The notes under the pieces were generated by a model. That model was not told where the DNA came from. It did not search any database and saw only the letters and a list, made by a program, of their open reading frames with translations. The translations under genes and the position numbers were made by a program. Below, in pieces: positions 18,118-34,123 of a DNA stretch of 34,123 nucleotides. The stretch is from a virus. Within the stretch, counting starts at the first letter, position 1. The number at the start of each line of letters is the position of its first letter. The stretch lies in the UHGV virus genome UHGV-1338014. One strand, given 5' to 3'.

Positions 18118-18149
18118 AGTTAAAAGGCGCTATGAATGCCCTTTTAACT
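18118..18149 (+). terminator. Stem-loop downstream of major capsid gene (AGTTAAAAGG...CCTTTTAACT)
   Basis: 10-bp inverted repeat about 27 nt after the T stop, followed by TTTTAAAA; possible attenuator or mRNA-stabilising hairpin. Confidence 0.4.
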
Positions 18150-18169
18150 GCCTTTTAAAAGGCAGAGTC

Positions 18170-19460: not shown

Positions 19461-20068
19461 CAGAACAACGCCCTGAACTGCGCACACCGGGGAGCACAGT
19501 TGCGGCCGCAGAGCGCATTGTGGCCTGGCTGAAAACAGCGCTTCAGGGAAACACCCCTGACCGGGCCGACGTGGTGGAGCGTCACATCGGCCAGTTCAAC
19601 AGCCCCGATGAAGTGAAACGCTATCTGTCCGGTCGCACCGGCTGTATCCGGGTAGCTGCCCTGCGCGTCCGGGATATTAACCCGCGCGGCGGGCTGTCCG
19701 GTCTGGTCACCTGGGTGGCTTACATCATGGCGACGGATTCGTGGGGGTACTCCCGCGACGTGCGCTGTGAAGTGCTGGCCGGGAAGGTGATCAAACGTCT
19801 GCTGTCGTCAGATGCCACAGCGGGCATGGGGGCTGAACGCATGGCTGCTGACGTGCGGGCAGACAACATTTACTCCGCCAGCCTCGACGGGCTGGGCGTC
19901 ACCATGTGGGCGGTGACGTGGGAGCAGGAATTTCAGCTGGATGAAGAGATTGATCTCGCCGCGCTCCCGGACTTCCTGCGCCTCGGGACAACGCTGCGTA
20001 GCGGTGAACATACTGAGATTAACGACGTGATCCATGTACGGGGTGACGATGGAACAGAAACTGATTAA
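19457..20068 (+). CDS. Mu gp38-like structural protein (203 aa)
   Basis: Position between tail-completion gene and sheath gene; overlapping start. Confidence 0.6.
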   Translation: MTEQRPELRTPGSTVAAAERIVAWLKTALQGNTPDRADVVERHIGQFNSPDEVKRYLSGRTGCIRVAALRVRDINPRGGLSGLVTWVAYIMATDSWGYSRDVRCEVLAGKVIKRLLSSDATAGMGAERMAADVRADNIYSASLDGLGVTMWAVTWEQEFQLDEEIDLAALPDFLRLGTTLRSGEHTEINDVIHVRGDDGTETD

Positions 20069-20234
20069 GCCAGCGCGGGAAAGCGTTCGTGTCCGTAAAC
20101 CGGATGGCGCGCATTTATCCCCGGAAGGGGAACGTCTCGATGTCTGCGCTTACTGGCTGCGCCGTGAAGCCGAGGGAGATGTGGAAATAACCACACTTCC
20201 GAAAAATAACAACAAAACCAGAGGGAAAAAATAA
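20034..20234 (+). CDS. Small hypothetical protein (61-66 aa)
   Basis: Short ORF whose stop overlaps the sheath start codon; may start at ATG 20049. Confidence 0.4.
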   Translation: MYGVTMEQKLIKPARESVRVRKPDGAHLSPEGERLDVCAYWLRREAEGDVEITTLPKNNNKTRGKK

Positions 20235-21709
20235 TGTCGCTGGGTTCAATTCCTGATGATATCCGCGTCCCGCTTGTCTGGATCGATATCGACAATTCAC
20301 AGGCGCTGGATGGTGCATCCGCGCAAAGCCGAAAAATTCTGGTCATGGGCCATGCGGTATCGTCCGGTAGCGCAGACGCTCTGTCACTGACCCGCATCAC
20401 CAGTGACAGCCAGGCAGACCAGCTTTATGGCAAAGGGTCGATGCTGGCTGAAATGCTCAAAATGCTGCGCCGTGCCAACACGTACACGGAAACCTGGGCA
20501 ATGCCGGTTGCCGCGCCTGAAGGCGCTGCCGCAAAAGCCACGCTGACCGTGCTGGGTACGGCGACCAACGCCGGAACGGTGGCACTGCTGATTAACGGTG
20601 TGTCCGTTCAGGTGAGCGTGAGCGCCGGGGATACGAAGGAAAACATTGCAAAAGCCATTGCTGATGCGGTGACGAAAAAGCCTGCCACGCAGGTGGCTGC
20701 TGCGGTGAAGGATGATGCCACGGATACCGTGGAGCTGACCATGAACTGGCACGGCGTCACCGGCAACGGTGCCGACGTTCGCCTGAACTACTACACCGGC
20801 GAAGCTTTCCCGGCAGGTGTGAAGGTGACCGCAACCGCGTTTACCGGCGGCACCGGGACACCGGAAATGGCAGGCGCCGTTGCGGCCATCGGCCCGGAGT
20901 GGTTTACCGATATCATCGCCCCGTTTACCGACACGAAAAGCCTGAACACCCTGCGTGATGAACTACTGAACCGCTGGGGGCCGCTCAAAATGATGGAGGC
21001 GCAGCTGTGGACAGCGTTTCGTGGCACGCACGGGGAAACCGGCACGTTTGGTGAAACCCGCAATGACTGGCTGATTAGCTGTATCGGCACCAACCTGTCA
21101 CCGCACCCGGCGTGGATGTGGGCCGCGTCATACGGCGCAACGGCAGCGTATCACCTTGCCATTGACCCGGCGCGTCCGCTTCAGACGCTGGTTCTGACCG
21201 GCATTCTGCCGCCTGCGCGTAATGTTCGCTGGGATATGCCGGAACGTAACCTGCTGCTGCATGACGGCATTGCCACGCACATGGTGGACGCCGGGGATAA
21301 CGTCTGCATCGAGCGTGAAATCACCATGTACCGGGTTAATCAGTACGGTGATGCGGATGTGTCGTACCTGGATGTGCAGTCACCCGCCACGCTGGGCCGT
21401 ATCCGTTACATCATCAAGAACCGTTTCACGAACCGTTATCCGCGCCACAAGCTGGCGGACGATGACGTGCTGGACTCGCTGGATGCGGGGCAGCCGGTGA
21501 TGACGCCGAAGCTGTGCACCGCAGAGCTGCTGGATATCTGCCAGACCGAACTCCTCCCGGCGGGCCTTGTGGAGAACTTCAGCGATTACAGGGACACGCT
21601 TCAGGTGACACGCGACAGCAGTGATAAAAACCGCCTGAACTTTATCTGCCACCCGAATCTGGTGAACCAGCTGCGTGTGCTGGCAGGCCTGATTCAGTTC
21701 AAACTTTAA
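20234..21709 (+). CDS. L: Contractile tail sheath protein, Mu L-like (491 aa)
   Basis: Size and position upstream of tube gene. Confidence 0.85.
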   Translation: MSLGSIPDDIRVPLVWIDIDNSQALDGASAQSRKILVMGHAVSSGSADALSLTRITSDSQADQLYGKGSMLAEMLKMLRRANTYTETWAMPVAAPEGAAAKATLTVLGTATNAGTVALLINGVSVQVSVSAGDTKENIAKAIADAVTKKPATQVAAAVKDDATDTVELTMNWHGVTGNGADVRLNYYTGEAFPAGVKVTATAFTGGTGTPEMAGAVAAIGPEWFTDIIAPFTDTKSLNTLRDELLNRWGPLKMMEAQLWTAFRGTHGETGTFGETRNDWLISCIGTNLSPHPAWMWAASYGATAAYHLAIDPARPLQTLVLTGILPPARNVRWDMPERNLLLHDGIATHMVDAGDNVCIEREITMYRVNQYGDADVSYLDVQSPATLGRIRYIIKNRFTNRYPRHKLADDDVLDSLDAGQPVMTPKLCTAELLDICQTELLPAGLVENFSDYRDTLQVTRDSSDKNRLNFICHPNLVNQLRVLAGLIQFKL

Positions 21710-21718
21710 GGGGGCCGC

Positions 21719-22075
21719 ATGGCAAAAATTCTTGGGATGGCGACCATTCGCGTGAATGGCCGCGAAATTAAAACCGAGGGGAAATCCATACTGAATCCGG
21801 GCGGCTTCAGCCGCACCCAGCATATGGGCGGCGGCAAGGTCTGGGGCATCTCCAGCAAGATGGCCTCACCGTCCATCAAAGTGACCATTGCGGCAGCAGC
21901 GGATATGGACGTGATTGAAATCAGCAGCTGGGAAGACGTCACGGTGATGTTCTACGGCGACAACGGCCTGAACTACATGATGACGGGTTCAGCCACGGAT
22001 AACCCGGCGGAGCTGGACGAGGATTCCGGCACCATCAGTGCGAACTTTATCGGTGAAAAATGCGTGAAGGTGTGA
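21719..22075 (+). CDS. Tail tube protein, Mu M / gp40-like (118 aa)
   Basis: Size and position directly after sheath. Confidence 0.8.
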   Translation: MAKILGMATIRVNGREIKTEGKSILNPGGFSRTQHMGGGKVWGISSKMASPSIKVTIAAAADMDVIEISSWEDVTVMFYGDNGLNYMMTGSATDNPAELDEDSGTISANFIGEKCVKV

Positions 22076-22076
22076 C

Positions 22077-22472
22077 ATGGCCGCAATGGAATTTGAACTG
22101 AAACACGGGCTTCTGACCGGCAAAGGCACGGCAGATGAAACCCTGCATAAAACCGTGAAACTGCGCGAACTGACCGCCAGTGACGTGATTGATGCGCAAC
22201 TGGCCGCAGAACGCGTCGTCATGGGCGGGAACGGAAAGGCGGTGGCTTACTGCTCGGAAGTGCTGATGGGGCTGGAGATGATGCGCCGTCAGGTTGCGTC
22301 AATCGGTAATATCCCCGGCCCGCTGGACATGAAACAGCTGCGAATGCTCCACCCGGCAGACCTTGAACTTATCAGCACGAAAGCCGCTGCGCTGGATGAA
22401 ATGCTTGAGGAGGTGGCAACGCGGGGGCGAACTGATGCCGCTGGCGGCGGCACTGATGAACCTGCTGGTTAA
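22077..22472 (+). CDS. Tail assembly chaperone, Mu gp41 / P2 gpE-like (131 aa)
   Basis: Position between tube and tape measure; an overlapping ORF in another frame (22363..22572) suggests a possible frameshift extension. Confidence 0.65.
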   Translation: MAAMEFELKHGLLTGKGTADETLHKTVKLRELTASDVIDAQLAAERVVMGGNGKAVAYCSEVLMGLEMMRRQVASIGNIPGPLDMKQLRMLHPADLELISTKAAALDEMLEEVATRGRTDAAGGGTDEPAG

Positions 22473-22558
22473 CCTGTCTTCGCGATTCAGCATTCAGTAC
22501 CTGGAACAGCTGCCCCTGCGGCAGCTGTTCCGCCTGATAAAGCAACTGGAGAAACAGC

Positions 22559-24415
22559 ATGGCAACAGGTAACCGTCTCAGCACGGAAATCATGATCAAC
22601 CTTGCCGGGAACCTGACCGCCAAAGCCCGGCAATACGGCGCAAACATGTCGCAGTTCGCCCGGAACCATCAGAAGGCTATGCGCCTTGTTAAAGCCACTA
22701 CGGAATCTGCCACACGTGGCCTCGACGTGCTGGGTAACCGCTACACGGCAATGATAGCCGGGCTTGGCAGTAGTCTTACTATCAAACAGGTTGCCGATTT
22801 TGATGCGCAGATGCGCCGGATGGGTACGGATGCCCAGTTAACCACTGAACAGGTAAAGGCGCTTCACGACAAAATCAGGGATGTATCGAACCAGAAAGAT
22901 ATTCGTATTGATGCCTCTGCGCTTGGTCAGGGGGCCAGCGAACTTCTGGGGAAAACCGGTGATTATCAGTATGTGGTGGACAACCTCCGCAACATGGGGT
23001 TGATGATGCAGGCGTTCGGTGTTGACGGACAGGTTGCAGCCGGGCTGATGGCCCAGTTCTGGGAAAAAAACGTTCGGGGTGCTGATGCGGTCAATAACAT
23101 GATGGACAGGCTGTATTCGCAGTTCGCAGTGGGGTCTGTCAGCGTTGCCGATGTTGCCCGCGCTGCCCCGAAACTGTTTTCCATCATTCAGGATCAGGGA
23201 CCGGAAGCCATTGCCCAGATGGGGGCATTTGCTCAGGTGTTCGCCAAAAACAAAGGCAGCATTGATGAGACGGTAACCAGTATTCAGGCCATGTATGCCT
23301 CCCTGTCGGACAAAAAGAACATTGAGTTCCTGAAAAAAAACGGCATTGACGTTTTTGTCAAAGGCACAAAAGACATCAAAAAGCCCTATGAGCTGATGAT
23401 GGAAATCCTTAAACGGGCCAAATACGACCCGCTGAAACTTCAGGATGTGTTTGATCTGACCGGGATGCAGGGGATTAAGGCGCTGCTCAACCCTGAAAAC
23501 CGGCAACTGATGGAACAAATGATTTACGGCACGATTGATCTGGGTTCCACGCAAAAGGCCGCACAGACCAATGCCGAAGGCTTTAATGCTGCAATGCAAT
23601 CACTGAATAACGAATGGCAACGTTTTGCTGAAGGACAACTGGCAAAGCCCGTTCAGGAACTGGCTGATGCGCTCAACAGCGTGGACCAGAACACTGTCCA
23701 GAACTGGTTGCAGGTCGGTAAGTATATGGCGATCGCGCTGGGTGGCATTATCGCCATCAGAAAGACGTACCAGTTCGGTAAAACCATTCACGACATCATG
23801 AATCCCAAAGAGAAAGGCAAAGGGATACCCGGCGGCATTACGGATGTTTTCGGCTCCGGTGTGATGCCGGTTTATGTGGTCAATATGGGCAGTGGCGGGA
23901 TGAAGGGTAATACCGGTGGTCTGCCGGATGCGCCGGATTCATCGCGCAATCCCCGTAACTCCCGCAATCCACAAGGTCCGGGGAACCGTGGAGGAAAGGC
24001 AGGTAAAGGTGCAGGCATCATTGCTGCTGGTCTGGAATTTTACGATTTTCTGACCACGCAACACGCCCTGCCGGGCGAGGTTGACACGCTCACTAAATCC
24101 GTTGCCGGTGCCACTGACGCCAGCCCGTGGGAGCGCGAGTTCGCGCAACAAAGCCAGGACAACCAGAAAGCACTGGAATCCGTCTGGCGTAAGGTAACAG
24201 ACTGGTTCAATTCGCTGGGTGACAAGAACATTGCCGACCCGCGACCGTGGGCAGGTATGCAACCCACACAGAATTATCCTTTCCTTCCGCAGCAATTGCA
24301 GGGGGAAATCCGTGTGGTGGTGGAAGGTGACGCCCGCGTGAAAAGCGTCAGAGTGGATCAACCCGGCGTCAGACTCAGTGCGCAGGCTGGCGTCACCAGC
24401 GTGGAGCAAGGGTAA
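22559..24415 (+). CDS. Tail tape measure protein (618 aa)
   Basis: Largest tail gene; Ala/Gln/Gly-rich helical protein with C-terminal Gly-rich region. Confidence 0.85.
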   Translation: MATGNRLSTEIMINLAGNLTAKARQYGANMSQFARNHQKAMRLVKATTESATRGLDVLGNRYTAMIAGLGSSLTIKQVADFDAQMRRMGTDAQLTTEQVKALHDKIRDVSNQKDIRIDASALGQGASELLGKTGDYQYVVDNLRNMGLMMQAFGVDGQVAAGLMAQFWEKNVRGADAVNNMMDRLYSQFAVGSVSVADVARAAPKLFSIIQDQGPEAIAQMGAFAQVFAKNKGSIDETVTSIQAMYASLSDKKNIEFLKKNGIDVFVKGTKDIKKPYELMMEILKRAKYDPLKLQDVFDLTGMQGIKALLNPENRQLMEQMIYGTIDLGSTQKAAQTNAEGFNAAMQSLNNEWQRFAEGQLAKPVQELADALNSVDQNTVQNWLQVGKYMAIALGGIIAIRKTYQFGKTIHDIMNPKEKGKGIPGGITDVFGSGVMPVYVVNMGSGGMKGNTGGLPDAPDSSRNPRNSRNPQGPGNRGGKAGKGAGIIAAGLEFYDFLTTQHALPGEVDTLTKSVAGATDASPWEREFAQQSQDNQKALESVWRKVTDWFNSLGDKNIADPRPWAGMQPTQNYPFLPQQLQGEIRVVVEGDARVKSVRVDQPGVRLSAQAGVTSVEQG

Positions 24416-25689
24416 TGACAACAAGCAAAGGCAAATGGGACGGGCTGCGCGACGCCTCGTTTCGCGGTGTCCCTTTTTTTCTGGTGGATACGGAAGGCAC
24501 AGGTGGCCGTCGTGCCATTCCCCGTGCTTATCCCCGGCGTGAAACCGCCTGGACGGATGATAACGGGGCCGTTCCGGGGCAACAGCAGATTAACGCGAAG
24601 CTGTTGGGTAGCAACTTCCAGGCTGATTTAAACGCCCTTTTAGATGCGCTCAATACCCCCGGCCCCGGCGAGCTTATCCATCCGTGGTTCGGGATACAGA
24701 CCGTACAGGTTGGCAAGGTCACCCATCGCCTCAGCACGGAGGAAGACGGCATTGCGTATGTCACATTTGAAGTGTTTGAGGCAGGCGAGCGTCTGTTCCC
24801 GTCTGCGGCGGATAACACGCAGCAGGAAGTGCTGACGGGCATTGATGCGGTAAAAGCGGCCATTGACGATGGCAACTGGTTCGGTGCACCTGACGGGCTG
24901 GGTGAGATGGCCGACAGCTTTCTGGCCGATATGGAAAACCTTGTGGCCAACCTGCCCACGTTACCGACGGCACTGAATCAGTGGATGGACAGGCTGAACC
25001 ATTTTAAGGAGATGGCCGGAACCATTATTGCCACGCCGGGTCGTCTGGTCAGTGAGCTGTCCTTGCTCATTGACGGCGTGGTTGATCTGGTGACGGAATC
25101 ACCCGAAGCACTGGCGGTTTACACGACATTACGCAACCAGTGGGCCGGAGAACGCGCCCGACAGGTTGCCACTGGCGCACTGCCGGAAGATATCACCGTG
25201 AAGCCCGGCAGCGTGGCAGACGGTGAAATCGGCTTTGCCATCGGGCTGTCAGCGGATTATCAGCCGGTATCTGACAGCCTGCAGAAGAACATTGACGACT
25301 TCCGCCAGGTGGTTGTGCTGGAAACCCTGCTGGGACAGGCCAGTGCCGTGGCCTCGATGACGTTCGATACCAGTGATGCGGCATTATCTGCCGGTGACGC
25401 GCTGGCGGCTGAACTGCATGAGCAGTCGGTCGCGGCGGTGGAAAATAACCAGCGGGCATTGTGGCGAACGCTGCGTGATTTACGGCAGGCCGTGATTACG
25501 GATGCCCGCGAGCGTGCCGCCCGTCTGCCGGAAACCCGGCAGGTGACGCTGACCACAACCACATCTGCCGCATTGCTGGCATGGCGCGAGCATGGTGACA
25601 CCAGCCGACGGGATGAAATCGTGCAGCGTAACCGCCTGCGCCATCCGTCATTCATACTGCCAACGCAACCTGTGGAGATTACCGACTGA
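24415..25689 (+). CDS. N: DNA circularisation protein N-like tail protein (424 aa)
   Basis: Position immediately after tape measure, as Mu N. Confidence 0.7.
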   Translation: MTTSKGKWDGLRDASFRGVPFFLVDTEGTGGRRAIPRAYPRRETAWTDDNGAVPGQQQINAKLLGSNFQADLNALLDALNTPGPGELIHPWFGIQTVQVGKVTHRLSTEEDGIAYVTFEVFEAGERLFPSAADNTQQEVLTGIDAVKAAIDDGNWFGAPDGLGEMADSFLADMENLVANLPTLPTALNQWMDRLNHFKEMAGTIIATPGRLVSELSLLIDGVVDLVTESPEALAVYTTLRNQWAGERARQVATGALPEDITVKPGSVADGEIGFAIGLSADYQPVSDSLQKNIDDFRQVVVLETLLGQASAVASMTFDTSDAALSAGDALAAELHEQSVAAVENNQRALWRTLRDLRQAVITDARERAARLPETRQVTLTTTTSAALLAWREHGDTSRRDEIVQRNRLRHPSFILPTQPVEITD

Positions 25690-26762
25690 TGGGCTCCGTG
25701 ATTCTTACCGTTGACGGCAAATTGTGGGAAGGCTGGACGGAAATGTCCGTCAGTCGTTCCCTGAAGGCGATTGCCGGTGAGTTTGATCTCAGTGTGACAA
25801 CCCGCTGGTCAGCGGCGGCACCGCGCGTGATTCGTGAGGGGCAACCCTGCACGGTCAGGCTGGGCGCGGATACCGTGCTGACGGGGTATATCGATGATTT
25901 TATTCCCAGCTATGACGCAGAAAACGTGGAGATTCGCGTCATGGGGCGCGACAAAACCGGTGACCTGGTGGACTGCTCTGTGGTGCATTCGTCCGGGAAA
26001 TGGAAAGGCGTGCGGCTTGAACAGGTGGCGGCTGATGTCTGCCGCCCGTTCGGGATAACCGTCATCACGGAAACCCCGACCGGGGAGGCGTTTGCGTCTG
26101 TCGTTCTGGAACAGGGTGAAACGGGCTTTGAACTGCTCGACCGGCTGGCAAAACAGCGCGGCGTTCTGCTGACGTCTGACGGAGGGGGTAACCTGATTAT
26201 CACCCGCGCCTCTTCCGTTCGCGCAGGTGTCTCACTGGTGCTGGGAAAAAATATCCTCGCCGCCCGTGGGCGCTTCAGCTGGCGGGAGCGTAACAGTCAG
26301 TACATCATCAAGGGCACCACCAGTGCCGGTGGCAAACTGTGGGACAGCCAGCCTGCCTCGATGGTGGGCGGTCGCCAGTACATCACCGAAGACCCGGAAA
26401 TTAACCGTTACCGCCCGCGCATTCTGGTCAATGAAGACAGTCTGACCGTGGGTGGAGCCAGCATTCGCGGGGAATGGTTCAAGGCCCGGATGCTGGGAGA
26501 GGCCCGCACGACGGAAATCACGGTGGCAGGCTGGCGCGAACAGGGCGACAGCGGCCCGCTGTGGCAGACCAACCGCCTTGTTGATATCGACGACAGTATT
26601 CAGAACCTGAAAACCACCTGGTTGATATCCGGGGTGACCTGGACGGATGGTGCACAGGGGCGGATAACGGTTCTGGCGCTGGTTCCGCCTGAATCACTGG
26701 ACATGCCGGAAATGAAAGTGAAAACGAAGAAATCAGCAAAAGCGGTGGTCACATGGGATTAA
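25689..26762 (+). CDS. P: Baseplate hub protein, Mu P / P2 gpD-like (357 aa)
   Basis: Position and size. Confidence 0.7.
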   Translation: MGSVILTVDGKLWEGWTEMSVSRSLKAIAGEFDLSVTTRWSAAAPRVIREGQPCTVRLGADTVLTGYIDDFIPSYDAENVEIRVMGRDKTGDLVDCSVVHSSGKWKGVRLEQVAADVCRPFGITVITETPTGEAFASVVLEQGETGFELLDRLAKQRGVLLTSDGGGNLIITRASSVRAGVSLVLGKNILAARGRFSWRERNSQYIIKGTTSAGGKLWDSQPASMVGGRQYITEDPEINRYRPRILVNEDSLTVGGASIRGEWFKARMLGEARTTEITVAGWREQGDSGPLWQTNRLVDIDDSIQNLKTTWLISGVTWTDGAQGRITVLALVPPESLDMPEMKVKTKKSAKAVVTWD

Positions 26763-27289
26763 GCGCAATTACCCGCCGTCTGCGGCTGATGGTTGACCGT
26801 GCCATTGTCCGCATGGTGTCTGACAGTCTGGAGCGGCAGAACCTGCAAATCCAGACGCTGGCAGATGCCACCGATGACGACGTGGAACGCTTCCAGAATT
26901 ACGGTTTTACTTCCGTTCCGCCGGAAGGTTCTGAAGCCATAGTGCTGGCCGTTGGCGGACGGCGTGACGGGCTGGTTGCCATCGCAGTGGAGGACAAGCG
27001 ATGTCGCCCTAAAGGCCTGTCTCCCGGCGACGTCCGACTGTATCACCGGGACGGAAAATCACACATCACCCTGAAGGAAAACGGCGTTATTGAAATAACA
27101 GGGGAACAATTAGACGTTTCAGGGACAACGGTAAATCTCACCGCCGACGAATTGCTGAATATTATCGGTAAACAAATGAAATTCGTCGGTCCCTGTGAAT
27201 TTACTGAAGATGTCACCATCAACGGTAAATCTTTCAGCAATCATATTCATAAGGACGGCGACAATGAGAAGACATCACCGCCCGTATGA
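26753..27289 (+). CDS. Baseplate spike / assembly protein V-like, Mu gp45 (178 aa)
   Basis: Size, position and beta-rich composition typical of gpV-like spike proteins. Confidence 0.65.
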   Translation: MGLSAITRRLRLMVDRAIVRMVSDSLERQNLQIQTLADATDDDVERFQNYGFTSVPPEGSEAIVLAVGGRRDGLVAIAVEDKRCRPKGLSPGDVRLYHRDGKSHITLKENGVIEITGEQLDVSGTTVNLTADELLNIIGKQMKFVGPCEFTEDVTINGKSFSNHIHKDGDNEKTSPPV

Positions 27290-27738
27290 CGACAGGAATC
27301 CGCTGGAATAACATGCTCTCACGGGGTGACATCACCGTCACCCATAACGGCCTCTCACGGGATGAGGGGCTGGTCACTCAGGTTCTTATCTGCCTTTTCA
27401 CCGATGCCCGCGCTGATGACGATGATGTCATCCCTGATGGTTCCGGCGACCCGCGTGGCTGGCCGGGCGACACATACAGCGATTTTTCGTGGGGTTCCCG
27501 CCTGTGGCTGCTTGAGCGTGAAAAGCTGACGGAAGATGTCCGCCTGCGCGTGGAAGATTACGCACGGCTGTCCATGCAACCGCTGCTGCGGGCCGGTTAC
27601 GCCCGTAACGCCACTGTCACGGCCAGAATCATCGCCCCTGACTGTATTGCCTTTCAGGTGGTGTTAACCCGCCCGGACAAAACCACGCTCACAATCGAAA
27701 TCACCCGTCGATGGGAGGCCACCATTAATGCCGTATGA
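27286..27738 (+). CDS. Baseplate protein gpW / gp25-like, Mu gp46 (150 aa)
   Basis: Size and position. Confidence 0.65.
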   Translation: MTTGIRWNNMLSRGDITVTHNGLSRDEGLVTQVLICLFTDARADDDDVIPDGSGDPRGWPGDTYSDFSWGSRLWLLEREKLTEDVRLRVEDYARLSMQPLLRAGYARNATVTARIIAPDCIAFQVVLTRPDKTTLTIEITRRWEATINAV

Positions 27739-28804
27739 AATCCCCACGCTGGGCAAACTGATTGCCGACGGCGAAAAAGATATTGCGTATGAACTCGGCC
27801 TGCAAAAGCTGCCGCCTGTCAGTGTTGAGCAGGCGCTGAACGTGTCATTCAGCAGTCAGGTCCGGGATTTATACGACCATCAGAGCTGGATTAAGGACCA
27901 GATAATCCCGTCCACCACGTCTGATGATGAAACCATTATCAAAACAGCAACGTATGAAGGGGTTATCCGCAAACAGGCCACCTTTGCCAGCGGGCCGGTG
28001 ACCTTCACCAGTCAGTCTCTCCTTCCGGCTGAAACACGGATGCAGTCCGACACGAATCAGGTGTACCAGGTGCTCACATCCGGTGAGGTACGGGACGGCG
28101 AGGTCACCGTCATTGTGCAGGCTGAAGAAGCCGGGGTGGCGGGTAATCTTGCTGCCGGTGCCGTGCTGACCCTGTTATCTCCGCTGCCCGGAACGGCCAG
28201 TGCAGGCGTGGTGGCTGAAGGTGGCATCACCGGTGGCGCAGACACTGAATCCATCGCGGAGCTGCTGGACCGTCTGCTGTATGTGCGTCGCAATCCCCCG
28301 GTGGGCGGTGCTCTGCATGATTACGTCATCTGGGCTCGCGAAGTGGCTGGCGTCAGCCGCGCGTGGGCGTGGGATGCGTGGCACGGCCCCGGCACGGTCG
28401 GACTGGCATGGCTTTACGATGACCGTGAAGATATTGTACCGACCCGCAAAGACCTGAAGACAATGGAGCAGTATCTGTTCTGCCACAAACACCCGGCCAC
28501 TGGGGTTATGGTGGGCAAACCGGGCGGCATTGAGGTCTGGCCGGTTCAGGTCAGGCTGAAGAAAGTCGACCTGTCCATCCGTCTGACACCGGACGGCCAG
28601 GCAAACAGGAACGCCGTCCGGGCAAACCTGACCGCATTACAGAAAACGCTGGCCCCTGGTCAGATGCTGCCGGTGTCCTCGCTGCGCACGGCCATCGGTA
28701 TGACATCCGGCATTACAGATTACTTTCTCAACATCGGGGAAGACACCACCAGTGATGTGGATGAGCTTATCACCATCGGGGAGGTGACATGGCTCACAGC
28801 GTGA
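27728..28804 (+). CDS. Baseplate J-like protein, Mu gp47 (358 aa)
   Basis: Size and position. Confidence 0.7.
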   Translation: MPYEIPTLGKLIADGEKDIAYELGLQKLPPVSVEQALNVSFSSQVRDLYDHQSWIKDQIIPSTTSDDETIIKTATYEGVIRKQATFASGPVTFTSQSLLPAETRMQSDTNQVYQVLTSGEVRDGEVTVIVQAEEAGVAGNLAAGAVLTLLSPLPGTASAGVVAEGGITGGADTESIAELLDRLLYVRRNPPVGGALHDYVIWAREVAGVSRAWAWDAWHGPGTVGLAWLYDDREDIVPTRKDLKTMEQYLFCHKHPATGVMVGKPGGIEVWPVQVRLKKVDLSIRLTPDGQANRNAVRANLTALQKTLAPGQMLPVSSLRTAIGMTSGITDYFLNIGEDTTSDVDELITIGEVTWLTA

Positions 28805-29763
28805 CGGAATGGCTGACCGCACTGCAACAGGTCATGCCACGGGGTAAAGCATGGACGCGTGATAACGACGCGGATTTAAACCGTTTTTTAAGGGCGCTTG
28901 CAGCGCGTTTAACCCGCATTGAATACGACGCCTCGCGTCTGCATGTGGAGATGCGCCCGGAAACCATGCTCCAGCTGCTGCCGGAGTGGGAGCAGTATCT
29001 GGCGCTGCCGGAATGCGGAATTGCCGCCACCACAACGGAAGCCCGCCGTCGTGCCGTGGTGGAGAAATACCGCCGCAAGGGTGGGCTGGCAACCTGGCAG
29101 ATTGAAGCCGCTGCTGCGGCGCTGGGCTTCACCATCAAGGTGACGGCCGTTCTGCCGCATCACTGCCTGCGCGACTGCATGTACCCGCTGCATCCGGCGC
29201 GGTATCGCTGGCTGCTGAAAGTGGAGGTTCAGGACAGCGACGCCGGGCGTTTTACCTGTGTTGATGATGTCATGACACCATTAATCAGCGGACGCACCCG
29301 CGAGCTGGAATGTCTCCTGAAAAATTACCGCATGGGTGGAACAGGGTATGAGTTTTTTTACACCGATGGTAACGATGAGGCTGTGTCCGGTCCGCCATTA
29401 TCCGTTAATCGCATACAGATTCAGGCCGGATATAAACCAGAAGAACCGTTAACGGTTAACTGTGCAGGGCTGCATTTTGCACTTGTTCCGGCACTGACAG
29501 GTAAGCCGCTGACAATTAACCGGATTAACTTTTATGCCGCCCGTCCGACGGCAGAACCACTGGTACTCAGCAGGGCGCAATTGCACTCAGGTCTGCCGAC
29601 AACGGACCCCATGACCATGAGCAGCGCACAGTTGCAGACGGGATACAGGACCCGCTCCCCCGTACCGGTTAACAGTATGCAGTTGCAGACAGCCAACAGA
29701 ACCCGTGAACCGTTATTGATTAATCACCCGGGACTGCATTTTGCTGTGGTCACGTCCGAATGA
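28789..29763 (+). CDS. Tail protein, Mu gp48 / P2 gpI-like N-terminal domain with a C-terminal repeat extension (324 aa)
   Basis: About 190 aa gpI-like region, then about 130 aa made of degenerate peptide repeats (…N-R-I-Q-I-Q-A-G-Y… / …A-Q-L-Q-T-G-Y… / …M-Q-L-Q-T-A-N…) and two copies of HPGLHFA-like ends. Confidence 0.65.
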   Translation: MAHSVTEWLTALQQVMPRGKAWTRDNDADLNRFLRALAARLTRIEYDASRLHVEMRPETMLQLLPEWEQYLALPECGIAATTTEARRRAVVEKYRRKGGLATWQIEAAAAALGFTIKVTAVLPHHCLRDCMYPLHPARYRWLLKVEVQDSDAGRFTCVDDVMTPLISGRTRELECLLKNYRMGGTGYEFFYTDGNDEAVSGPPLSVNRIQIQAGYKPEEPLTVNCAGLHFALVPALTGKPLTINRINFYAARPTAEPLVLSRAQLHSGLPTTDPMTMSSAQLQTGYRTRSPVPVNSMQLQTANRTREPLLINHPGLHFAVVTSE

Positions 29764-29786
29764 CATAAAATAAAAGGAGAGCCGCT

Positions 29787-30845
29787 TTGAATATTATTAA
29801 ACTCGAAAGTTTTCGACAAATTCCGGCGAATGAGGGATTGTGCGAGAACTATTATTCAACAAATATTATTTCAGCACTGAACGAAAACGGTGTCACGCTT
29901 ATCAATGATATGTCCGGTTCTGTAACATCCGTCTGTCGTGGCACTCAGGCCGTAAATACTGTAGAAAGAACGGGGCTGATTTTTACGACACCCTCATATG
30001 TCACACTGTACAGCACACTTCCGGACTTAAAAGCCTCAGCTGTACAGCTGGGATTTCGTCTGACATTAAGTGCGGGAAAGAAATATTCATCTTCGCCATC
30101 CCACATCAGGATTAATGGCTATTCATTTACAACCCCGTATCCTGATGAAGCAGCCAGTTATTACTATGAAATTTTCGCAACGCGAAACGAAAACGGCTAT
30201 GTCTCAGCCAGTCTGTACTGCAACCGCTCATTAGTTGGAAATGCATCGTTTTATGTATCAGATGACCGGACTGACAAAATTCAGGTGAGTATTGGTAGTG
30301 GTGACAATATTTTTTCATCGGGTGCATCCGGCACGTTAATGCTGGGTGATATGTACTGTGGAACAGTGGCATACGGAAAAAATAACAGCGCGGAACCCGC
30401 CCTGCTCGGAAGTATTGAGGTCAGATACAGCCCGGTAACGGCATTTACCGGTGGAAGCGCCAAAAACTCACTGAATAAAGATATTGTCACGGGGCTGAAC
30501 ACCTCTGACAGCGAGGCCGGATATCTGATGCTCTCGCCGTCCCTGAATGCAGCACAGGCCACGTTTGGTGCGGTGGATAACAGCAACAGTGATGTTGTGG
30601 CTGTTATGGCCTCGGTCACTTACCGCGGTGCTGATGCCCCCAATAACCGCCTGGCCTGGAAAGTGAAAAATGGCAGCCATGCAGGCGCAACGATTACAGA
30701 GAATGGCGTACAAAGCGACACAAACAGCTGGACGACTGTCTCACAGAGTTTTATGACCCAACCAGGAGGGAACACTCCCTTCGCTAAGGGTGAGCTGACT
30801 TTTACAGCGGAGTTGTTTAATCAGGCAAGGAGCGCTACTGAATAA
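29787..30845 (+). CDS. Hypothetical Ser/Thr/Asn/Gly-rich protein, probable tail-fibre or receptor-binding component (352 aa, TTG start)
   Basis: AAAGGAGA RBS 6 nt upstream of TTG 29787; lower GC than flanking genes; beta-rich composition. Confidence 0.55.
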   Translation: MNIIKLESFRQIPANEGLCENYYSTNIISALNENGVTLINDMSGSVTSVCRGTQAVNTVERTGLIFTTPSYVTLYSTLPDLKASAVQLGFRLTLSAGKKYSSSPSHIRINGYSFTTPYPDEAASYYYEIFATRNENGYVSASLYCNRSLVGNASFYVSDDRTDKIQVSIGSGDNIFSSGASGTLMLGDMYCGTVAYGKNNSAEPALLGSIEVRYSPVTAFTGGSAKNSLNKDIVTGLNTSDSEAGYLMLSPSLNAAQATFGAVDNSNSDVVAVMASVTYRGADAPNNRLAWKVKNGSHAGATITENGVQSDTNSWTTVSQSFMTQPGGNTPFAKGELTFTAELFNQARSATE

Positions 30846-30887
30846 TAAATATCTCTGTATACACAATATCAGGAGAAATAATCAGAT

Positions 30888-31958
30888 ATGTTTCACATTG
30901 ATAATAATACTGGCGTGCCGGTTATGCCGCCCGTCGCGGCTGAATACAGTAAAACGACGCTTTATTTCACCGAAGGAGGGAACGGTATTCCACCCACGTA
31001 TCCGGGGCCGGACTGGTTTAATATCGTGCAGTCCGAAATGCTGGAAATTCTCCGGCAGGCAAATATCAAACCGGACAAAAACACGACCAACCAGATTATG
31101 ACGGCGCTGAAAAAGCTGTTTATCACTAACAGTGGTTCAGCCGGGGCTATTGCCGAATTAACCGGTCAGAATAATACGTTCCCGTATTTTACGGGCGAAG
31201 ACACAATGTCATTAACGCCACTCAGTGCGTTTGTGCGCAGTATTCTCGGCAAAGAAAGTGCAACAGATTTTGCAGATGCACTGAAAGTCATAAAACAATC
31301 AGGCGACACGATGACAGGAGAGTTGAAAATCCGTGGTGTTAATGCGCTGAGGATTTTCGACGAAGCCTTTGGCCTGATTTTTCGTCGTTCGGAAGAGTGC
31401 CTGCACCTTATCCCTACCAGTGAAGGTCAGGGCGAGAATGGCGATATTGGTCCACTTCGCCCGTTCGCTATTAATCTGCGGACGGGTGAAATATCCATGT
31501 CGCATAAAGTGTCTGTTGGCGGTGGTTCGCAGGTCAATGGTGCGCTGGGTATCGGCGTTCAGAACGCGCTGGGCGGAAACTCAATTGCTTTCGGGGATAA
31601 CGATACCGGCCTGAAACAGAATGGTGACGGCATTCTGGATGTTTATGCGAATAACCAGCATGTGCTGCGTTTTCAGAGTGACAGCATTCAGAGCAATAAA
31701 GCAGTAAACGTTACAGGGCGGGTAACACCGTCAGACTACGCAAATTTTGATGCCCGCTATAAGCAGAGGACGGAGGGCGTGGAGGATATCCGGCTGGGAG
31801 GCCAGAGGGTCGACGGACACTATGATGATGATTTTACCGTTCCTTCAGGGTATGTCGTGGTTGGTGGTGATGTGCATCCTTCAACGTCATTAAAGCTGTA
31901 CTCAAGACCCCTTCAGAAATTAATTAATGGCACCTGGTATAACGCGGCGAGTGTATAA
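30888..31958 (+). CDS. Tail fibre protein (356 aa)
   Basis: N-terminus MFHIDNNTGVPVMPP...GIPPTYPGPDWFNIVQSEMLEIL resembles the conserved N-termini of enterobacterial phage side tail fibres; followed by a tail-fibre assembly gene. Confidence 0.7.
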   Translation: MFHIDNNTGVPVMPPVAAEYSKTTLYFTEGGNGIPPTYPGPDWFNIVQSEMLEILRQANIKPDKNTTNQIMTALKKLFITNSGSAGAIAELTGQNNTFPYFTGEDTMSLTPLSAFVRSILGKESATDFADALKVIKQSGDTMTGELKIRGVNALRIFDEAFGLIFRRSEECLHLIPTSEGQGENGDIGPLRPFAINLRTGEISMSHKVSVGGGSQVNGALGIGVQNALGGNSIAFGDNDTGLKQNGDGILDVYANNQHVLRFQSDSIQSNKAVNVTGRVTPSDYANFDARYKQRTEGVEDIRLGGQRVDGHYDDDFTVPSGYVVVGGDVHPSTSLKLYSRPLQKLINGTWYNAASV

Positions 31959-31960
31959 CA

Positions 31961-32506
31961 ATGCTTCATTTAAAAAATATTACTGCGGGTAATCCGAAAA
32001 CGGCAGAGCAATATCAGATGACAAAGCGGCATAGTATTGTCTGGCTTTTTTCGGAAGATGGCAAAAACTGGTATGAAGAACAGAAGAATTTTGCCAGCGA
32101 CACCATAAAAGCAGCCTATAACGACAGCGGGCGCGTGGTGTGGGTCGGTAAGGATGTGACAGGTATCGAACCCACTAACGTCAGTATCATTGAACTCCCG
32201 GATATTACTGCTAACCGCCGCATCACCGTACCGGGATACTGGTTTTACCGCAATGATGAATTTGTTTTTGATTACAAATTAAAAGCAGAAGACGAGCGTG
32301 ATACCCTGTTACAACAGACCAGCATCATGACCAGCGAATGGGAAAAAGACCTGCTGTTGGGATTAATCAGCGACGAAGACAGGGAAAAGCTGAAAGCGTA
32401 CCGTATTTACGCAAAGGCGTTGCAGGCGATGGATTTAAGCACCATCACCGATAAAACCACATATAACGCCATTAACTGGCCGGAGCGTCCCGATGCCGCA
32501 GCTTAA
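31961..32506 (+). CDS. Tail fibre assembly chaperone (Tfa / Mu U-like, 181 aa)
   Basis: Typical Tfa size and position immediately 3' of the fibre gene. Confidence 0.75.
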   Translation: MLHLKNITAGNPKTAEQYQMTKRHSIVWLFSEDGKNWYEEQKNFASDTIKAAYNDSGRVVWVGKDVTGIEPTNVSIIELPDITANRRITVPGYWFYRNDEFVFDYKLKAEDERDTLLQQTSIMTSEWEKDLLLGLISDEDREKLKAYRIYAKALQAMDLSTITDKTTYNAINWPERPDAAA

Positions 32507-32963
32507 AGGTGTGATTAAAACGCCCACAGGAGAACCGCTGGGCGGCACAACCATCACGCTGACCTCCCTGCACAACCGTGCAGGGATTCTGAAAGGTGTT
32601 TTCAGCCACGTCACTACACAGAGCGGGGAGTACGACTTCCCCGTTCTGCCGGGCGTGTACAGTGTTCGCCTGACACAGAGCGCACAGCGCCTTTCAGAAA
32701 TCGGCATCATTCGCGTTTATGAAGATTCACAGGACGGTTCGCTTAACGATTTTTTGTCGGTGACAGATGCAGATTTGCGCCCTGAATCTCTTAAAAAGTT
32801 CGAAGAGATTGCAATGCAGATACAAAAAAGTGCGGAAAGTGTCAGATTATATGCAGAGGAGGTGAAACGGGATTGCGCAATTACCCTCGAAAACAGAAAA
32901 CAGACAGAGAGACTGCTGTCCCTGATAGCAGAGCCTCTTTCTCAGAGTGCCGCAGAAAGCTGA
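32493..32963 (+). CDS. Stand-alone prophage tail-fibre N-terminal domain protein (156 aa), likely remnant of a second fibre gene
   Basis: IRVYEDSQDGSLNDFLSVTDADLRPE matches the hallmark motif of the lambda-type side-tail-fibre N-terminal domain; the ORF stops after about 156 aa with no fibre shaft. Confidence 0.6.
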   Translation: MPQLKGVIKTPTGEPLGGTTITLTSLHNRAGILKGVFSHVTTQSGEYDFPVLPGVYSVRLTQSAQRLSEIGIIRVYEDSQDGSLNDFLSVTDADLRPESLKKFEEIAMQIQKSAESVRLYAEEVKRDCAITLENRKQTERLLSLIAEPLSQSAAES

Positions 32964-33003
32964 CTCAAAAAAGGTTAATAATTAAGCGTTTTGTATAGAT
33001 TAT

Positions 33004-33100
33004 GACGATCGATACCATCATATCGATCGTCGTTTTACATCATGTGTGGTTAAATATCCCCAGCCCTCCGGGTGGTCGTATCTGGTTATTACACAGGGGG
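33004..33100 (+). promoter_or_regulatory. com-mom regulatory region with a perfect 11-bp palindrome carrying two GATC sites
   Basis: GACGATCGATA-N6-TATCGATCGTC at 33004..33031 (GATC at 33007..33010 and 33025..33028), followed by the promoter region and the com RBS. Mu mom is known to be controlled by Dam methylation upstream of its promoter. Confidence 0.6.
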
Positions 33101-33104
33101 AATC

Positions 33105-33290
33105 ATGGACTCTGTTCGCTGTAAAAACTGCAATAAGTTACTGTTTAAAGGAGGTTTTAAGCATATAGAAATTAAATGCCCTCGCTGTAAACGTTACATT
33201 GTCATATCGAATGCCAAAGAGCATCCCACGGAGCTGTATTGTGGGAAAAGAGAAGAAATCACGCATTCTGACAAAACCCTGCGTTATTGA
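33105..33290 (+). CDS. com: Com, zinc-finger translational activator of mom (61 aa)
   Basis: CKNC...CPRC zinc-finger motif; small ORF overlapping the 5' end of mom; AGGGGG RBS before ATG 33105. Confidence 0.85.
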
Positions 33291-33936
33291 GTATGAAGGC
33301 CGGATTGTCGGCTATGGTTCAAAGGAGTTGCGCGTTGAAACCATATCCTGCTGGCTGGCCCGCACAATCATTCAGACAAAGCATTATTCCCGCCGTTTTG
33401 TGAATAACTCCTACCTGCATCTGGGCGTATTCAGCGGACGTGATCTGGTTGGCGTTCTTCAGTGGGGATATGCCCTTAATCCCAACTCAGGGCGTCGTGT
33501 CGTGCTTGAAACAGATAACCGGGGTTACATGGAACTGAACCGCATGTGGTTACACGACGACATGCCCCGCAATTCTGAATCACGGGCCATCAGCTACGCG
33601 CTGAAAACCATCAGGTTACTGTATCCGTCAGTGGAGTGGGTTCAGTCCTTTGCAGACGAACGCTGCGGGCGTGCTGGCGTGGTATATCAGGCGTCGAATT
33701 TTGATTTTATTGGTAGCCATGAAAGCACATTCTACGAACTGGACGGCGAGTGGTATCACGAGATAGCGATGAACGCGATTAAGCGCGGAGGTCAACGAGG
33801 CGAGTATTTGCGGGCTAATAAGGAACGGGCAGTGGTACACAAATTTAATCAATATCGCTACATCAGGTTCCTGAACAAGCGCGCAAGAAAACGCCTAAAC
33901 ACCAAACTATTCAGGGTTCAGCCATACCCGAAGTGA
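33199..33936 (+). CDS. mom: Mom DNA-modification protein (anti-restriction adenine modification)
   Basis: Last gene before the right end, overlapping com. The frame is open from 33199, but the real start may be the internal GTG at 33241, which would give 231 aa. Confidence 0.85.
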
Positions 33937-33957
33937 CCCCACGTTATGAATAAAAAA

Positions 33958-33984
33958 ACAGCGGTTAATGCCGCTGTTTCGTTT
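33958..33984 (+). terminator. Terminator-like hairpin after mom (ACAGCGG-TTAATG-CCGCTGT, A-run upstream and T-rich downstream)
   Basis: 7-bp GC-rich stem about 22 nt after the mom stop, flanked by A7 and TTTCGTTT. Confidence 0.6.
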
Positions 33985-34051
33985 GAAGCACGAAAATTAA
34001 AGTTTTCGCATTTATCGTGAAACGTTTTCGCGTTTTTCGTGCGCCGCTTCA
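33975..34051 (+). promoter_or_regulatory. Right end (attR) with putative transposase-binding sites R1-R3
   Basis: CGAAA-containing repeats (TTCGTGCTTCAAAC complement, TTTCGCATTTATCGTGAAACG, TTTCGCGTTTTTCGTGCGCCGCTTCA) terminating in ...CA at 34051. Confidence 0.7.
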
Positions 34052-34056
34052 GCCGC
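34052..34056. repeat. Right copy of 5-bp target-site duplication (GCCGC)
   Basis: Identical pentamer to 48..52, immediately after the terminal ...CTTCA. Confidence 0.85.
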
Positions 34057-34123
34057 TGTTCATATTTACTCATTAAGATCGCTTCACTAAACCATAATTT
34101 TACAGGGGCTATTATGCGGAAAC

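What the first reader, a model, noticed from the sequence alone, without database searches (positions are those of the whole stretch)
28789..32963. No G-segment or gin invertase: tail-fibre locus is fixed in one orientation
Canonical Mu and D108 carry an invertible G segment with alternative fibre genes and a gin recombinase between U and com. Here all fibre-region genes are on the + strand, no inverted fibre or Tfa copies occur, and no serine-recombinase ORF exists anywhere in the window; com follows the fibre locus directly. Host range is therefore not switchable by inversion in this phage.
Basis: partly seen in the sequence, partly recalled or inferred. Interest (0 to 1): 0.55.

Follow-up and report, generated by a model that had tools for sequence, protein, structure and literature searches.

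The report
Mu-like prophage lacking fibre inversion switch
This complete Mu-like E. coli prophage really has no invertible tail-fibre segment and no invertase, which is normal for the lineage its tail genes come from; the locus carries several same-strand fibre-type genes, including a rare adaptor plus lectin-like protein pair.

Summary
The window holds a complete 33,999-bp Mu-type prophage (53..34051). It has Mu-type ends and a 5-bp target duplication (GCCGC) in the torC promoter region. No Gin-like protein, serine-recombinase motif, gix/hix-like site, long inverted repeat or second fibre/Tfa copy occurs on either strand.

The absence is not a peculiar loss. The phage is a mosaic. Its early region is about 91% identical to D108 and its com-mom region 88% identical to Mu. 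Its late genes belong to another Mu-like lineage (Klebsiella Kp4866-3, Vibrio martha 12B12, Shewanella MuM16-2). The two annotated members end in gp47-gp48-fibre with no invertase, and Kp4866-3 shows no invertase-sized reverse-strand ORF. Five inspected E. coli relatives also lack an invertase and are collinear.

All genes of the locus are on the + strand:
- a gp48 wedge protein fused to seven 17-residue repeats;
- a 352-aa protein with two jelly-roll domains;
- an S-like fibre and its Tfa;
- a truncated lambda-Stf-like N-domain.

Relatives differ by cassette exchange, not inversion. The repeat module and the 352-aa family co-occur on three different tail anchors. This is a rare adaptor/partner pair for which I found no description.

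Interest in the finding as given is low to moderate.

The parts
48..57 (+). Left junction: 5-bp target-site duplication GCCGC (48-52) followed by the Mu-type left end TGTAT... (from 53)
   Evidence: D108 position 1 aligns to window 53
27728..28804 (+). Baseplate J / Mu gp47 homologue, the last gene of the high-GC late backbone before the locus
   Evidence: PF04865 E = 5e-58; 37% identity to Mu gp47; 57% to Klebsiella phage Kp4866-3
28789..29385 (+). gp48 (baseplate wedge BW3, YmfQ family) core, aa 1-199
   Evidence: PF10076 E = 5.7e-29; PDB 9ki1_a, Mu gp48, E = 1e-21; relatives with a short 194-aa gp48 end here
29395..29763 (+). C-terminal extension of gp48: seven tandem ~17-aa repeats (P-L-x-[IV]-N-R-x-x-L-Q-[ST]-G-x4-E) ending in a PLLINHPGLHFAVV cap
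   Evidence: the same module sits on Stf-type and P2-type anchors
29787..30845 (+). 352-aa protein of unknown function (phrog_8291, no Pfam); predicted two jelly-roll (ConA-like) domains; candidate glycan-binding virion protein that partners with the repeat module
   Evidence: genomic co-occurrence
30888..31958 (+). S-like tail fibre. N-terminal anchor (aa 1-134) is conserved within the lineage. The C-terminal receptor-binding part is exchangeable. It lacks the middle of Mu S that carries gixL.
   Evidence: phrog_6859 E = 3e-135 and PF20744; alignment to Mu S 1-142 and 258-504 only; 93% identity over aa 1-134 and then unrelated versus NCCP 13717, 81% versus VL40
31961..32506 (+). Tail fibre assembly protein (U/U' homologue)
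   Evidence: PF02413 E = 3e-23; 43% identity to Mu U' and 36% to U
32493..32963 (+). Truncated second fibre: lambda-Stf-type N-terminal domain (aa 1-~113) followed by an unrelated 40-aa tail
   Evidence: PF08400 E = 7e-25; full-length versions of 468 and 301 aa in VL40 and STEC719; PGAP marks it as a partial pseudogene in relatives
32964..33104 (+). Spacer holding the mom regulatory region, with GATC sites at 33007 and 33025. This is the position gin occupies upstream in Mu.
   Evidence: alignment with Mu and relatives; GATC positions
33105..33290 (+). com
   Evidence: PF10122 and phrog_13819; 73% aa identity to Mu Com
33199..33936 (+). mom
   Evidence: PF25680 E = 1.5e-75; 97% aa identity to Mu Mom; 88% nt identity to Mu over 33115-34051
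34047..34056 (+). Right junction: Mu-type right end ...CTTCA (to 34051) and the 5-bp duplication GCCGC (34052-34056), then torC-region host DNA

Best explanation
The window is a complete Mu-type transposable prophage of E. coli whose tail-fibre locus is structurally non-invertible.

Shown:
- There is no serine invertase, no crossover site and no oppositely oriented fibre/Tfa set.
- The genome is a mosaic. A Mu/D108-type early region and com-mom operon are joined to a late-gene module of a different Mu-like lineage.
- The checked members of that lineage carry no G segment or gin.

Inferred:
- The absence is inherited with that late module and is not a recent deletion of G-gin.
- Host range in this lineage is set by a fixed set of receptor-binding genes transcribed together from the + strand. 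It is changed at population level by horizontal exchange of cassettes downstream of conserved anchor domains.
- In this phage the set is (i) an S-like fibre with its Tfa chaperone, docking on gp48 as in Mu, and (ii) a second appendage formed by the 17-residue repeat extension fused to gp48 together with the 352-aa double jelly-roll protein encoded next to it.
- A third element, a lambda-Stf-type second fibre that is intact in some relatives, is truncated here and probably non-functional.
For: No invertase or sites:
- Gin tblastn negative, best E = 2.3.
- No recombinase signature in six frames, with a positive control.
- No recombinase Pfam domain in 29 additional ORFs.
- No gix/hix-like site beyond chance.
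- No inverted repeat longer than 28 nt.
- No paralogous fibre or Tfa copy.
- The fibre lacks the segment of Mu S (aa 143-257) that carries gixL.

The prophage is complete: Mu ends and the GCCGC duplication lie within the window.

Mosaic:
- 53-7637 is about 91% identical to D108.
- 33115-34051 is 88% identical to Mu.
- gp47 and gp48 are only 37% and 31% identical to Mu. The closest phages are Kp4866-3, Vibrio martha 12B12 and Shewanella MuM16-2.
- The annotated ends of martha 12B12 and MuM16-2 run gp47-gp48-fibre with no invertase. Kp4866-3, which is unannotated, shows no reverse-strand ORF of invertase size at its end.
- GC content is 57% in the late backbone and 46-53% from the gp48 extension onward.

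Relatives. About 45 complete E. coli genomes share the backbone. Five were inspected. All have every fibre gene on one strand and no invertase, at different chromosomal sites. They differ by cassette:
- gp48 is short or extended.
- The fibre C-terminus is swapped after aa 134.
- The second fibre is intact or truncated.

Mu-like phages without a G region are already documented: KS10 and BcepMu (PMC2628397).

The fibre N-terminus docks on a loop of gp48 in Mu (PMC11915804).
Against: - No sequencing reads were available, so the absence of inversion is inferred from the lack of all required parts and is not observed directly.
- Only five of the ~45 backbone relatives were inspected gene by gene.
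- Kp4866-3 is unannotated and was judged from ORFs alone.
- A Pfam scan of every reading frame was not possible. Very divergent or novel recombinases are excluded only by the lack of unassigned coding space and of inverted repeats.
- Co-expression and virion incorporation of the gp48 extension, the 352-aa protein and the 156-aa Stf fragment are untested.
- The structure model of the extension was uninformative (pLDDT 43).
Confidence: 0.85

Rival explanations
1. Secondary loss. An ancestor of this phage had a G-type invertible segment and invertase between Tfa and com. A deletion removed them, and the truncated Stf-type ORF (32493..32963) is the scar.
For: - The 156-aa ORF is a truncated version of longer genes. 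Homology to the 468-aa and 301-aa relatives ends near aa 113.
- e14-type elements combine a YmfQ/gp48-type tail module with an Stf-type constant region and Pin (own knowledge, not tested here).
- com-mom is of Mu origin, and in Mu it lies next to gin.
Against: - Relatives in which the second fibre is intact (VL40, STEC719) have it in tandem on the same strand, followed directly by a chaperone or other genes and com. They have no invertase and no inverted copy.
- The closest sequenced phages of the late-module lineage show no invertase.
- No residual crossover half-site is detectable.
- The deletion therefore removed the distal part of a tandem fibre gene, not a switch.
Confidence: 0.1
2. The locus is still invertible, through cryptic sites used in trans by host-encoded Din-family invertases (Pin of e14, PinQ, PinR) or by an unrecognised recombinase.
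For: E. coli hosts often carry Pin-type invertases, and these cross-complement between systems (own knowledge; PinQ and PinR papers are listed).
Against: - The best matches to gix, hix or the family consensus are equal to those in shuffled sequence (5 mismatches of 16 specified positions).
- No inverted-repeat pair longer than 28 nt at 71% complementarity flanks any fibre gene.
- There is no alternative coding sequence on the - strand that an inversion could bring into frame. The - strand ORFs in the locus are at most 112 aa and lie antisense to + strand genes.
- Five inspected relatives are all collinear.
Confidence: 0.03
3. Artefact: the window or assembly is incomplete, and the G segment and gin lie outside it or were collapsed during assembly.
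For: None beyond the general possibility. Invertible repeats can confuse assemblers.
Against: - Both Mu-type ends, the 5-bp duplication GCCGC and host torC-region flanks are in the window.
- The same gene order occurs in independently assembled complete genomes at other insertion sites.
Confidence: 0.01

Closest known systems
Phage Mu / D108 G segment with Gin (Din-family invertible tail-fibre switch; also P1 Cin, e14 Pin)
   Same: - Homologous gene set around it: gp47, gp48, S-like fibre N-terminus (38% identity), U/U'-like Tfa (36-43%), com and mom (73% and 97% aa identity).
- Same order: baseplate, fibre, Tfa, com-mom.
   Different: - No gin.
- No 34-bp inverted repeats.
- No U'-S' set.
- The fibre lacks the part of S that holds gixL.
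- The spacer before com holds only the mom regulatory region.
Mu-like transposable phages without a G region (Burkholderia BcepMu and KS10; Vibrio martha 12B12; Shewanella MuM16-2; Klebsiella Kp4866-3)
   Same: - Mu-type baseplate genes followed by same-strand fibre genes at the genome end, with no invertase.
- The late proteins of the last three are the closest phage relatives of this window.
   Different: - This prophage also carries a Mu/D108-type early region at about 91% nt identity and a Mu-type com-mom operon at 88%. martha 12B12 and MuM16-2 end directly after the fibre gene.
- Its fibre locus is more elaborate: gp48 fusion, 352-aa protein, truncated second fibre.
Phages with several co-expressed or branched receptor-binding proteins attached through adaptors (for example DT57C LtfA/LtfB, cited in PMC11915804; G7C and CBA120-type branched spikes, own knowledge)
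   Same: A conserved anchor domain carries a module next to which a separate, diversifying protein is encoded. More than one receptor-binding gene is on the same strand.
   Different: - Here the putative docking module is a 17-residue tandem repeat fused to the baseplate wedge protein itself.
- The partner is a double jelly-roll protein with no sequence similarity to known spikes or fibres.
- Physical attachment is inferred only from gene adjacency.

Membership tests
Din-type invertible tail-fibre segment (Mu G/Gin, P1 C/Cin, e14 P/Pin) | Serine invertase gene adjacent to the segment | tested here: not met
   tblastn with Mu Gin gave best E = 2.3. PS00397 and PS00398 are absent in six frames, with a positive control. 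No recombinase domain in the ORFs scanned.
Din-type invertible tail-fibre segment (Mu G/Gin, P1 C/Cin, e14 P/Pin) | Pair of inverted 26-34 bp crossover sites flanking the segment | tested here: not met
   No gixL match with up to 3 mismatches. Best consensus matches equal shuffled sequence. Longest inverted repeat is 28 nt at 71% complementarity.
Din-type invertible tail-fibre segment (Mu G/Gin, P1 C/Cin, e14 P/Pin) | Two alternative fibre C-terminus + Tfa gene sets in opposite orientation | tested here: not met
   There is a single + strand copy of each. No - strand hit for S, U, U', S' or for the window's own proteins.
Din-type invertible tail-fibre segment (Mu G/Gin, P1 C/Cin, e14 P/Pin) | Fibre gene split into a constant N-terminal part outside the segment and a variable part inside, joined at the crossover site | tested here: not met
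   The window fibre aligns to Mu S 1-142 and 258-504. The stretch holding gixL has no counterpart.
Din-type invertible tail-fibre segment (Mu G/Gin, P1 C/Cin, e14 P/Pin) | Fis-dependent recombinational enhancer (sis) | not tested
   In Mu it lies inside gin (own knowledge). With no gin and no sites it was not searched.
Mu-type transposable phage | MuA/MuB transposition genes, c/ner region, Mu-type ends with a 5-bp target duplication | tested here: met
   53-7637 is about 91% identical to D108 c, ner, A, B, gam and others. HTH_Tnp_Mu_1 in the repressor. Ends TGTATTG...CTTCA and GCCGC duplication.
Mu-type transposable phage | Mu-type late genes and a com-mom operon | tested here: met
   Gp27, F, protease I, gpT, Baseplate_J, Gp48, Com and Mom domains. 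Mor, GemA and Gam.
Genus Muvirus (Mu, D108, SfMu) | Nucleotide similarity across the whole genome, including the late region and G-gin | tested here: not met
   Megablast to Mu, D108 and SfMu covers only 28% of the first 25 kb plus com-mom. Late proteins are about 31-37% identical to Mu.
Mu gp48 / YmfQ baseplate wedge protein (BW3) | PF10076 domain homologous to the solved Mu gp48 | tested here: met
   PF10076 E = 5.7e-29. 9ki1_a E = 1e-21 over aa 4-195.
Mu gp48 / YmfQ baseplate wedge protein (BW3) | Single-domain protein of about 180-195 aa | tested here: not met
   The protein is 324 aa. About 125 extra C-terminal residues form seven repeats that are absent from Mu and from the VL40 and STEC719 relatives.
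Lambda Stf-type side tail fibre | N-terminal phage_tail_N domain followed by a shaft and a C-terminal receptor-binding domain | tested here: not met
   The N-domain is present (PF08400 E = 7e-25). Homology to full-length relatives stops near aa 113 and the ORF ends at 156 aa. PGAP calls it partial in relatives.

The most novel reading that the evidence does not exclude
The gp48-repeat fusion (29395..29763) and the adjacent 352-aa double jelly-roll protein (29787..30845) form a portable two-part receptor-binding or glycan-binding appendage that I found no description of. A tandem 17-residue repeat module (PLxINRxQLQSGxxxxE with a conserved cap) serves as shaft or docking array and can be grafted onto three unrelated tail anchors: the Mu gp48 wedge protein, the lambda Stf N-domain and the P2-type fibre N-domain. 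It always brings the same partner protein with it. On this reading the phage displays two different adhesins at once instead of alternating them by inversion.
Probability: 0.45. Interest if true: 0.6.

Novelty: new member of a known kind. Interest (0 to 1): 0.3.

Why it matters
As stated, the finding matters little. Mu-like phages without a G segment are well known, and this tail module comes from such a lineage.

It is useful for annotation. 'Mu-like' in E. coli does not imply Gin-mediated host-range switching, even when the early genes and com-mom are nearly those of Mu or D108.

The locus also shows how this lineage varies host range. Fibre tips, chaperones and whole extra appendages are exchanged behind conserved anchor domains.

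If the repeat-adaptor/partner pair is a real virion appendage, it would be a compact, transferable module for retargeting contractile and non-contractile tails. It would also be an example of a receptor-binding structure fused directly to a baseplate wedge protein.

Tried and rejected
A concatenated stop-to-stop set was produced but not submitted because of its size. It was replaced by Gin tblastn, PROSITE patterns and Pfam scans of 29 selected ORFs.
- One script was sent incomplete and printed nothing.
- Loci L003-L005 never appeared in the sandbox. Breakpoints against those relatives were therefore taken from protein alignments instead of blastn.
- The word-indexed protein search with the 130-aa repeat extension found only one hit. 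The full HMMER search was needed. One of its eight hits (P0035, RCC1 repeats in a giant-virus capsid protein) is spurious.
- The AlphaFold model of the full gp48 fusion with a 7-sequence alignment was unusable (pLDDT 43, pTM 0.32).
- Direct similarity between the gp48 extension and the 257-aa Stf-type protein upstream of the most distant 352-aa homologue (L007) was not found. That locus is the one exception to the repeat/partner rule.
- No tandem DNA repeat or simple-sequence tract suggestive of phase variation occurs in 28700-33100.
- A literature search for YmfQ gave nothing relevant.
- No hit for the 352-aa protein in the INPHARED phage genomes by tblastn or in PDB sequences.

Full report
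**What the window is**

The window contains a complete Mu-type prophage at 53..34051 (33,999 bp).
- The left end begins TGTATTGATTCAC, and D108 position 1 aligns to window 53. The right end is ...GCGCCGCTTCA.
- Both ends are flanked by the same five bases, GCCGC (48-52 and 34052-34056). This is the target duplication typical of Mu transposition.
- The last 72 bases match the E. coli torC region in thousands of genomes.

Because both ends and host flanks are present, nothing belonging to the phage can lie outside the window.

**Checking the observation**

In Mu and D108 the order is S, U, then U' and S' on the opposite strand, then gin, com, mom. Annotated inverted repeats mark the borders of the G segment.

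In the window the order after the baseplate J gene is as follows, all on the + strand:
- gp48-like gene, 28789..29763
- a 352-aa ORF, 29787..30845
- fibre, 30888..31958
- Tfa, 31961..32506
- a 156-aa ORF with a lambda-Stf-type N-domain, 32493..32963
- com, 33105..33290
- mom, 33199..33936

The search for an invertase and for alternative gene copies was negative:
- Mu Gin searched against all six frames gives only noise (best E = 2.3). Mu S, U, U' and S' each find one + strand place.
- The two PROSITE serine-recombinase signatures are absent from every frame, although both are found in Mu Gin.
- The nine reverse-strand ORFs of at least 160 aa have no Pfam domain, apart from the c repressor.
- Twenty further forward ORFs carry only Mu-type or lysis-related domains, or none.
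- The locus's own proteins have no second copy anywhere.

The search for recombination sites was also negative:
- The longest inverted repeats in 27-34 kb are 28 nt at 71% and 18 nt at 89% complementarity.
- gixL has no match with up to three mismatches.
- The best matches to gix, hix or a family consensus are no better than in shuffled sequence.
- The window fibre aligns to Mu S residues 1-142 and 258-504. The stretch of S that contains gixL has no counterpart.

The 141 bp between the last fibre-locus ORF and com hold the conserved mom regulatory sequence with two GATC sites. In Mu that sequence begins directly after gin.

**Why the switch is absent**

The phage is a mosaic.
- Positions 53-7637 are about 91% identical to D108 and about 89% to Mu and SfMu. 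This stretch covers c, ner, A, B, gam, gemA and others.
- Positions 33115-34051 (com-mom and the right end) are 88% identical to Mu.
- Nothing in between matches Mu at the nucleotide level. gp47 and gp48 are 37% and 31% identical to their Mu counterparts.
- The nearest phage relatives of gp47 are Klebsiella phage Kp4866-3 (57%), a group of Vibrio Mu-like phages including martha 12B12 (49-51%), and Shewanella phage MuM16-2 (49%).
- martha 12B12 and MuM16-2 end with gp47, gp48 and a same-strand fibre-type gene, with no invertase annotated. Kp4866-3 shows only forward ORFs of relevant size at its end.
- GC content is 57% in the late backbone against 48% in the early region and com-mom.

Mu-like phages without the G region are already described in the literature, for example KS10 and BcepMu (PMC2628397).

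About 45 complete E. coli genomes carry the same late backbone. I inspected five gene by gene. They lie at different chromosomal sites, as expected for a transposable phage. All have every fibre-locus gene on one strand and no invertase.

The simplest reading is that the late module never had the switch. The recombination joint with the Mu-type com-mom operon lies near 32,964-32,990, where window-type and VL40-type relatives re-align.

**What the locus contains instead**

Relatives differ by cassette, not by orientation.
- In VL40 and STEC719, gp48 is 194 aa and is followed directly by the fibre and Tfa. Then comes an intact second fibre with a lambda-Stf-type N-domain (468 aa plus a DUF4376 protein in VL40; 301 aa plus an SGNH hydrolase in STEC719), in tandem on the same strand.
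- In the window and in NCCP 13717, E300082 and cS51a, that second fibre is cut off after about residue 113. PGAP marks it as partial.
- In the same group gp48 is 324 aa, and a 352-aa gene sits between gp48 and the fibre.
- The fibre keeps its N-terminal about 134 residues (93% identity) and has an unrelated C-terminal part in NCCP 13717. It is 81% identical in VL40, diverging at the tip.
- In Mu the fibre N-terminus docks on a loop of gp48 (PMC11915804). The conserved N-part is therefore the anchor and the exchangeable C-part with its Tfa is the specificity module.
- GC drops to 46-53% from the gp48 extension onward, consistent with grafted cassettes.
- Parts of the fibre and Tfa are 86-91% identical at the nucleotide level to phiP27, Rac-SA53 and an Actinobacillus phage.

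**The gp48 extension and the 352-aa protein**

Residues 203-324 of the gp48-like protein are seven tandem units of about 17 residues, P-L-x-[IV]-N-R-x-x-L-Q-[ST]-G-x4-E. They end in PLLINHPGLHFAVV.

A full HMMER search of 1.84 billion representative proteins found only seven genuine clusters with this module, always at the C-terminus. The N-terminal domains of these proteins are of three kinds (further examples):
- Mu gp48
- lambda Stf N-domain with Phage_fiber_2 repeats
- P2-type Phage_tail_fib N-domain

The 352-aa protein has no Pfam domain. It belongs to phrog_8291 and to a family of 27 clusters, almost all from E. coli, spanning 41-97% identity.

The two components co-occur. In every repeat-bearing locus whose context I could read, the next gene is a member of this family:
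- the window and four inspected relatives (NCCP 13717, E300082, cS51a, B7A)
- L009, L011 and L013
- L019 (99% identical) and L020 (62% identical)

One distant family member (L007) has a repeat-less Stf-type protein and a 64-aa ORF upstream instead.

The cassette is present in about 55-60 of 5,426 complete E. coli genomes.

The structure prediction supports a virion protein that binds carbohydrate:
- The AlphaFold model of the 352-aa protein is confident (pLDDT 90.6, pTM 0.89) and all-beta.
- Over its full length it resembles predicted structures of similar-sized phage proteins (TM 0.6-0.68). The top match is a protein named 'virion structural protein' of Achromobacter phage AchV4.
- In AchV4, proteins of that size encoded at the end of the tail module were detected in virions by mass spectrometry (PMC7996906). 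I could not map the accession to a gene number.

I infer that the repeat module is a shaft or docking array and that the 352-aa protein is a carbohydrate-binding virion protein attached to it. That would give this phage a second appendage anchored on the wedge itself. This inference rests on gene adjacency and fold only. The model of the repeat region was uninformative.

**Verdict**

As a finding it is ordinary. The absence of G-gin is the normal state of this late-gene lineage, is shared by the five inspected E. coli relatives, and has precedents among Mu-like phages.

What is less ordinary is the combination of near-Mu/D108 early and mom modules with a foreign late module, and the rare repeat-adaptor/partner cassette fused to gp48.

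I rate the finding as a new member of a known kind with interest 0.3. The adaptor hypothesis is the most novel reading not excluded: probability about 0.45, interest 0.6 if true.

Noticed in passing
window 29395..30845; also L009 4945-7092, L011 5039-7149, L013 5189-7032, L017 ~6001-7364, L019 1213-2712, L020 4001-6254: A rare C-terminal module of 17-residue tandem repeats (PLxINRxQLQSGxxxxE plus a cap) occurs on three different tail anchor domains: Mu gp48, lambda Stf N-domain and P2-type fibre N-domain. It is always followed by a gene of the 352-aa double jelly-roll family (phrog_8291). Only seven genuine clusters carry the module among 1.84 billion representative proteins.
   Followed up: yes
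window 32493..32963: A truncated second tail-fibre gene. The lambda-Stf-type N-domain is intact to about aa 113 and is followed by an unrelated 40-aa tail. Full-length tandem versions exist in relatives VL40 (468 aa) and STEC719 (301 aa). Whether the fragment is expressed or incorporated into virions is unknown.
   Followed up: partly
window 53..7637 versus 8672..28804 versus 33115..34051: Mosaic genome. The early region is about 91% identical to D108 and com-mom 88% identical to Mu. The late region comes from a different Mu-like lineage with 57% GC against 48%. The left joint lies between about 7640 and 8670.
   Followed up: partly
window 1..52 and 34052..34123: The prophage is inserted in the torC promoter region, among repeated CTGTTCATAT motifs that look like tor boxes, with a GCCGC target duplication. 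The insertion probably disrupts torCAD regulation in the host.
   Followed up: no
window 33000..33104: The mom upstream region keeps the GACGATCGA...ATCGATCG core shared with Mu but has two GATC sites where Mu has three. It diverges from Mu between that core and the com start. Control by Dam and OxyR may differ.
   Followed up: no
window 7686..8096: Only one Mor/C-family activator gene was detected among the ORFs scanned, whereas Mu has both Mor and C. Which protein activates the late and mom promoters in this hybrid is unclear.
   Followed up: no
window 31290..32480: The fibre C-terminus and Tfa are 86% identical at the nucleotide level to Actinobacillus phage vB_Apl-pPE4, and the fibre part is 89-91% identical to phiP27 and Rac-SA53. 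This points to recent exchange of the receptor-binding cassette across unrelated phages, and apparently across host families.
   Followed up: no
window 8093..8572: A 159-aa ORF with no Pfam match lies between the Mor-like gene and the GH108 endolysin. It has a hydrophobic, signal-peptide-like N-terminus by eye (MKYFPLMFLLSVFCANA). It could be a lysis accessory or a lysogenic-conversion gene.
   Followed up: no
window 13582..14616 and 15858..16901 (- strand): Two long antisense ORFs (344 and 347 aa, TTG starts) lie inside the high-GC portal and protease region. They have no Pfam domain and are most likely compositional artefacts, not genes.
   Followed up: yes
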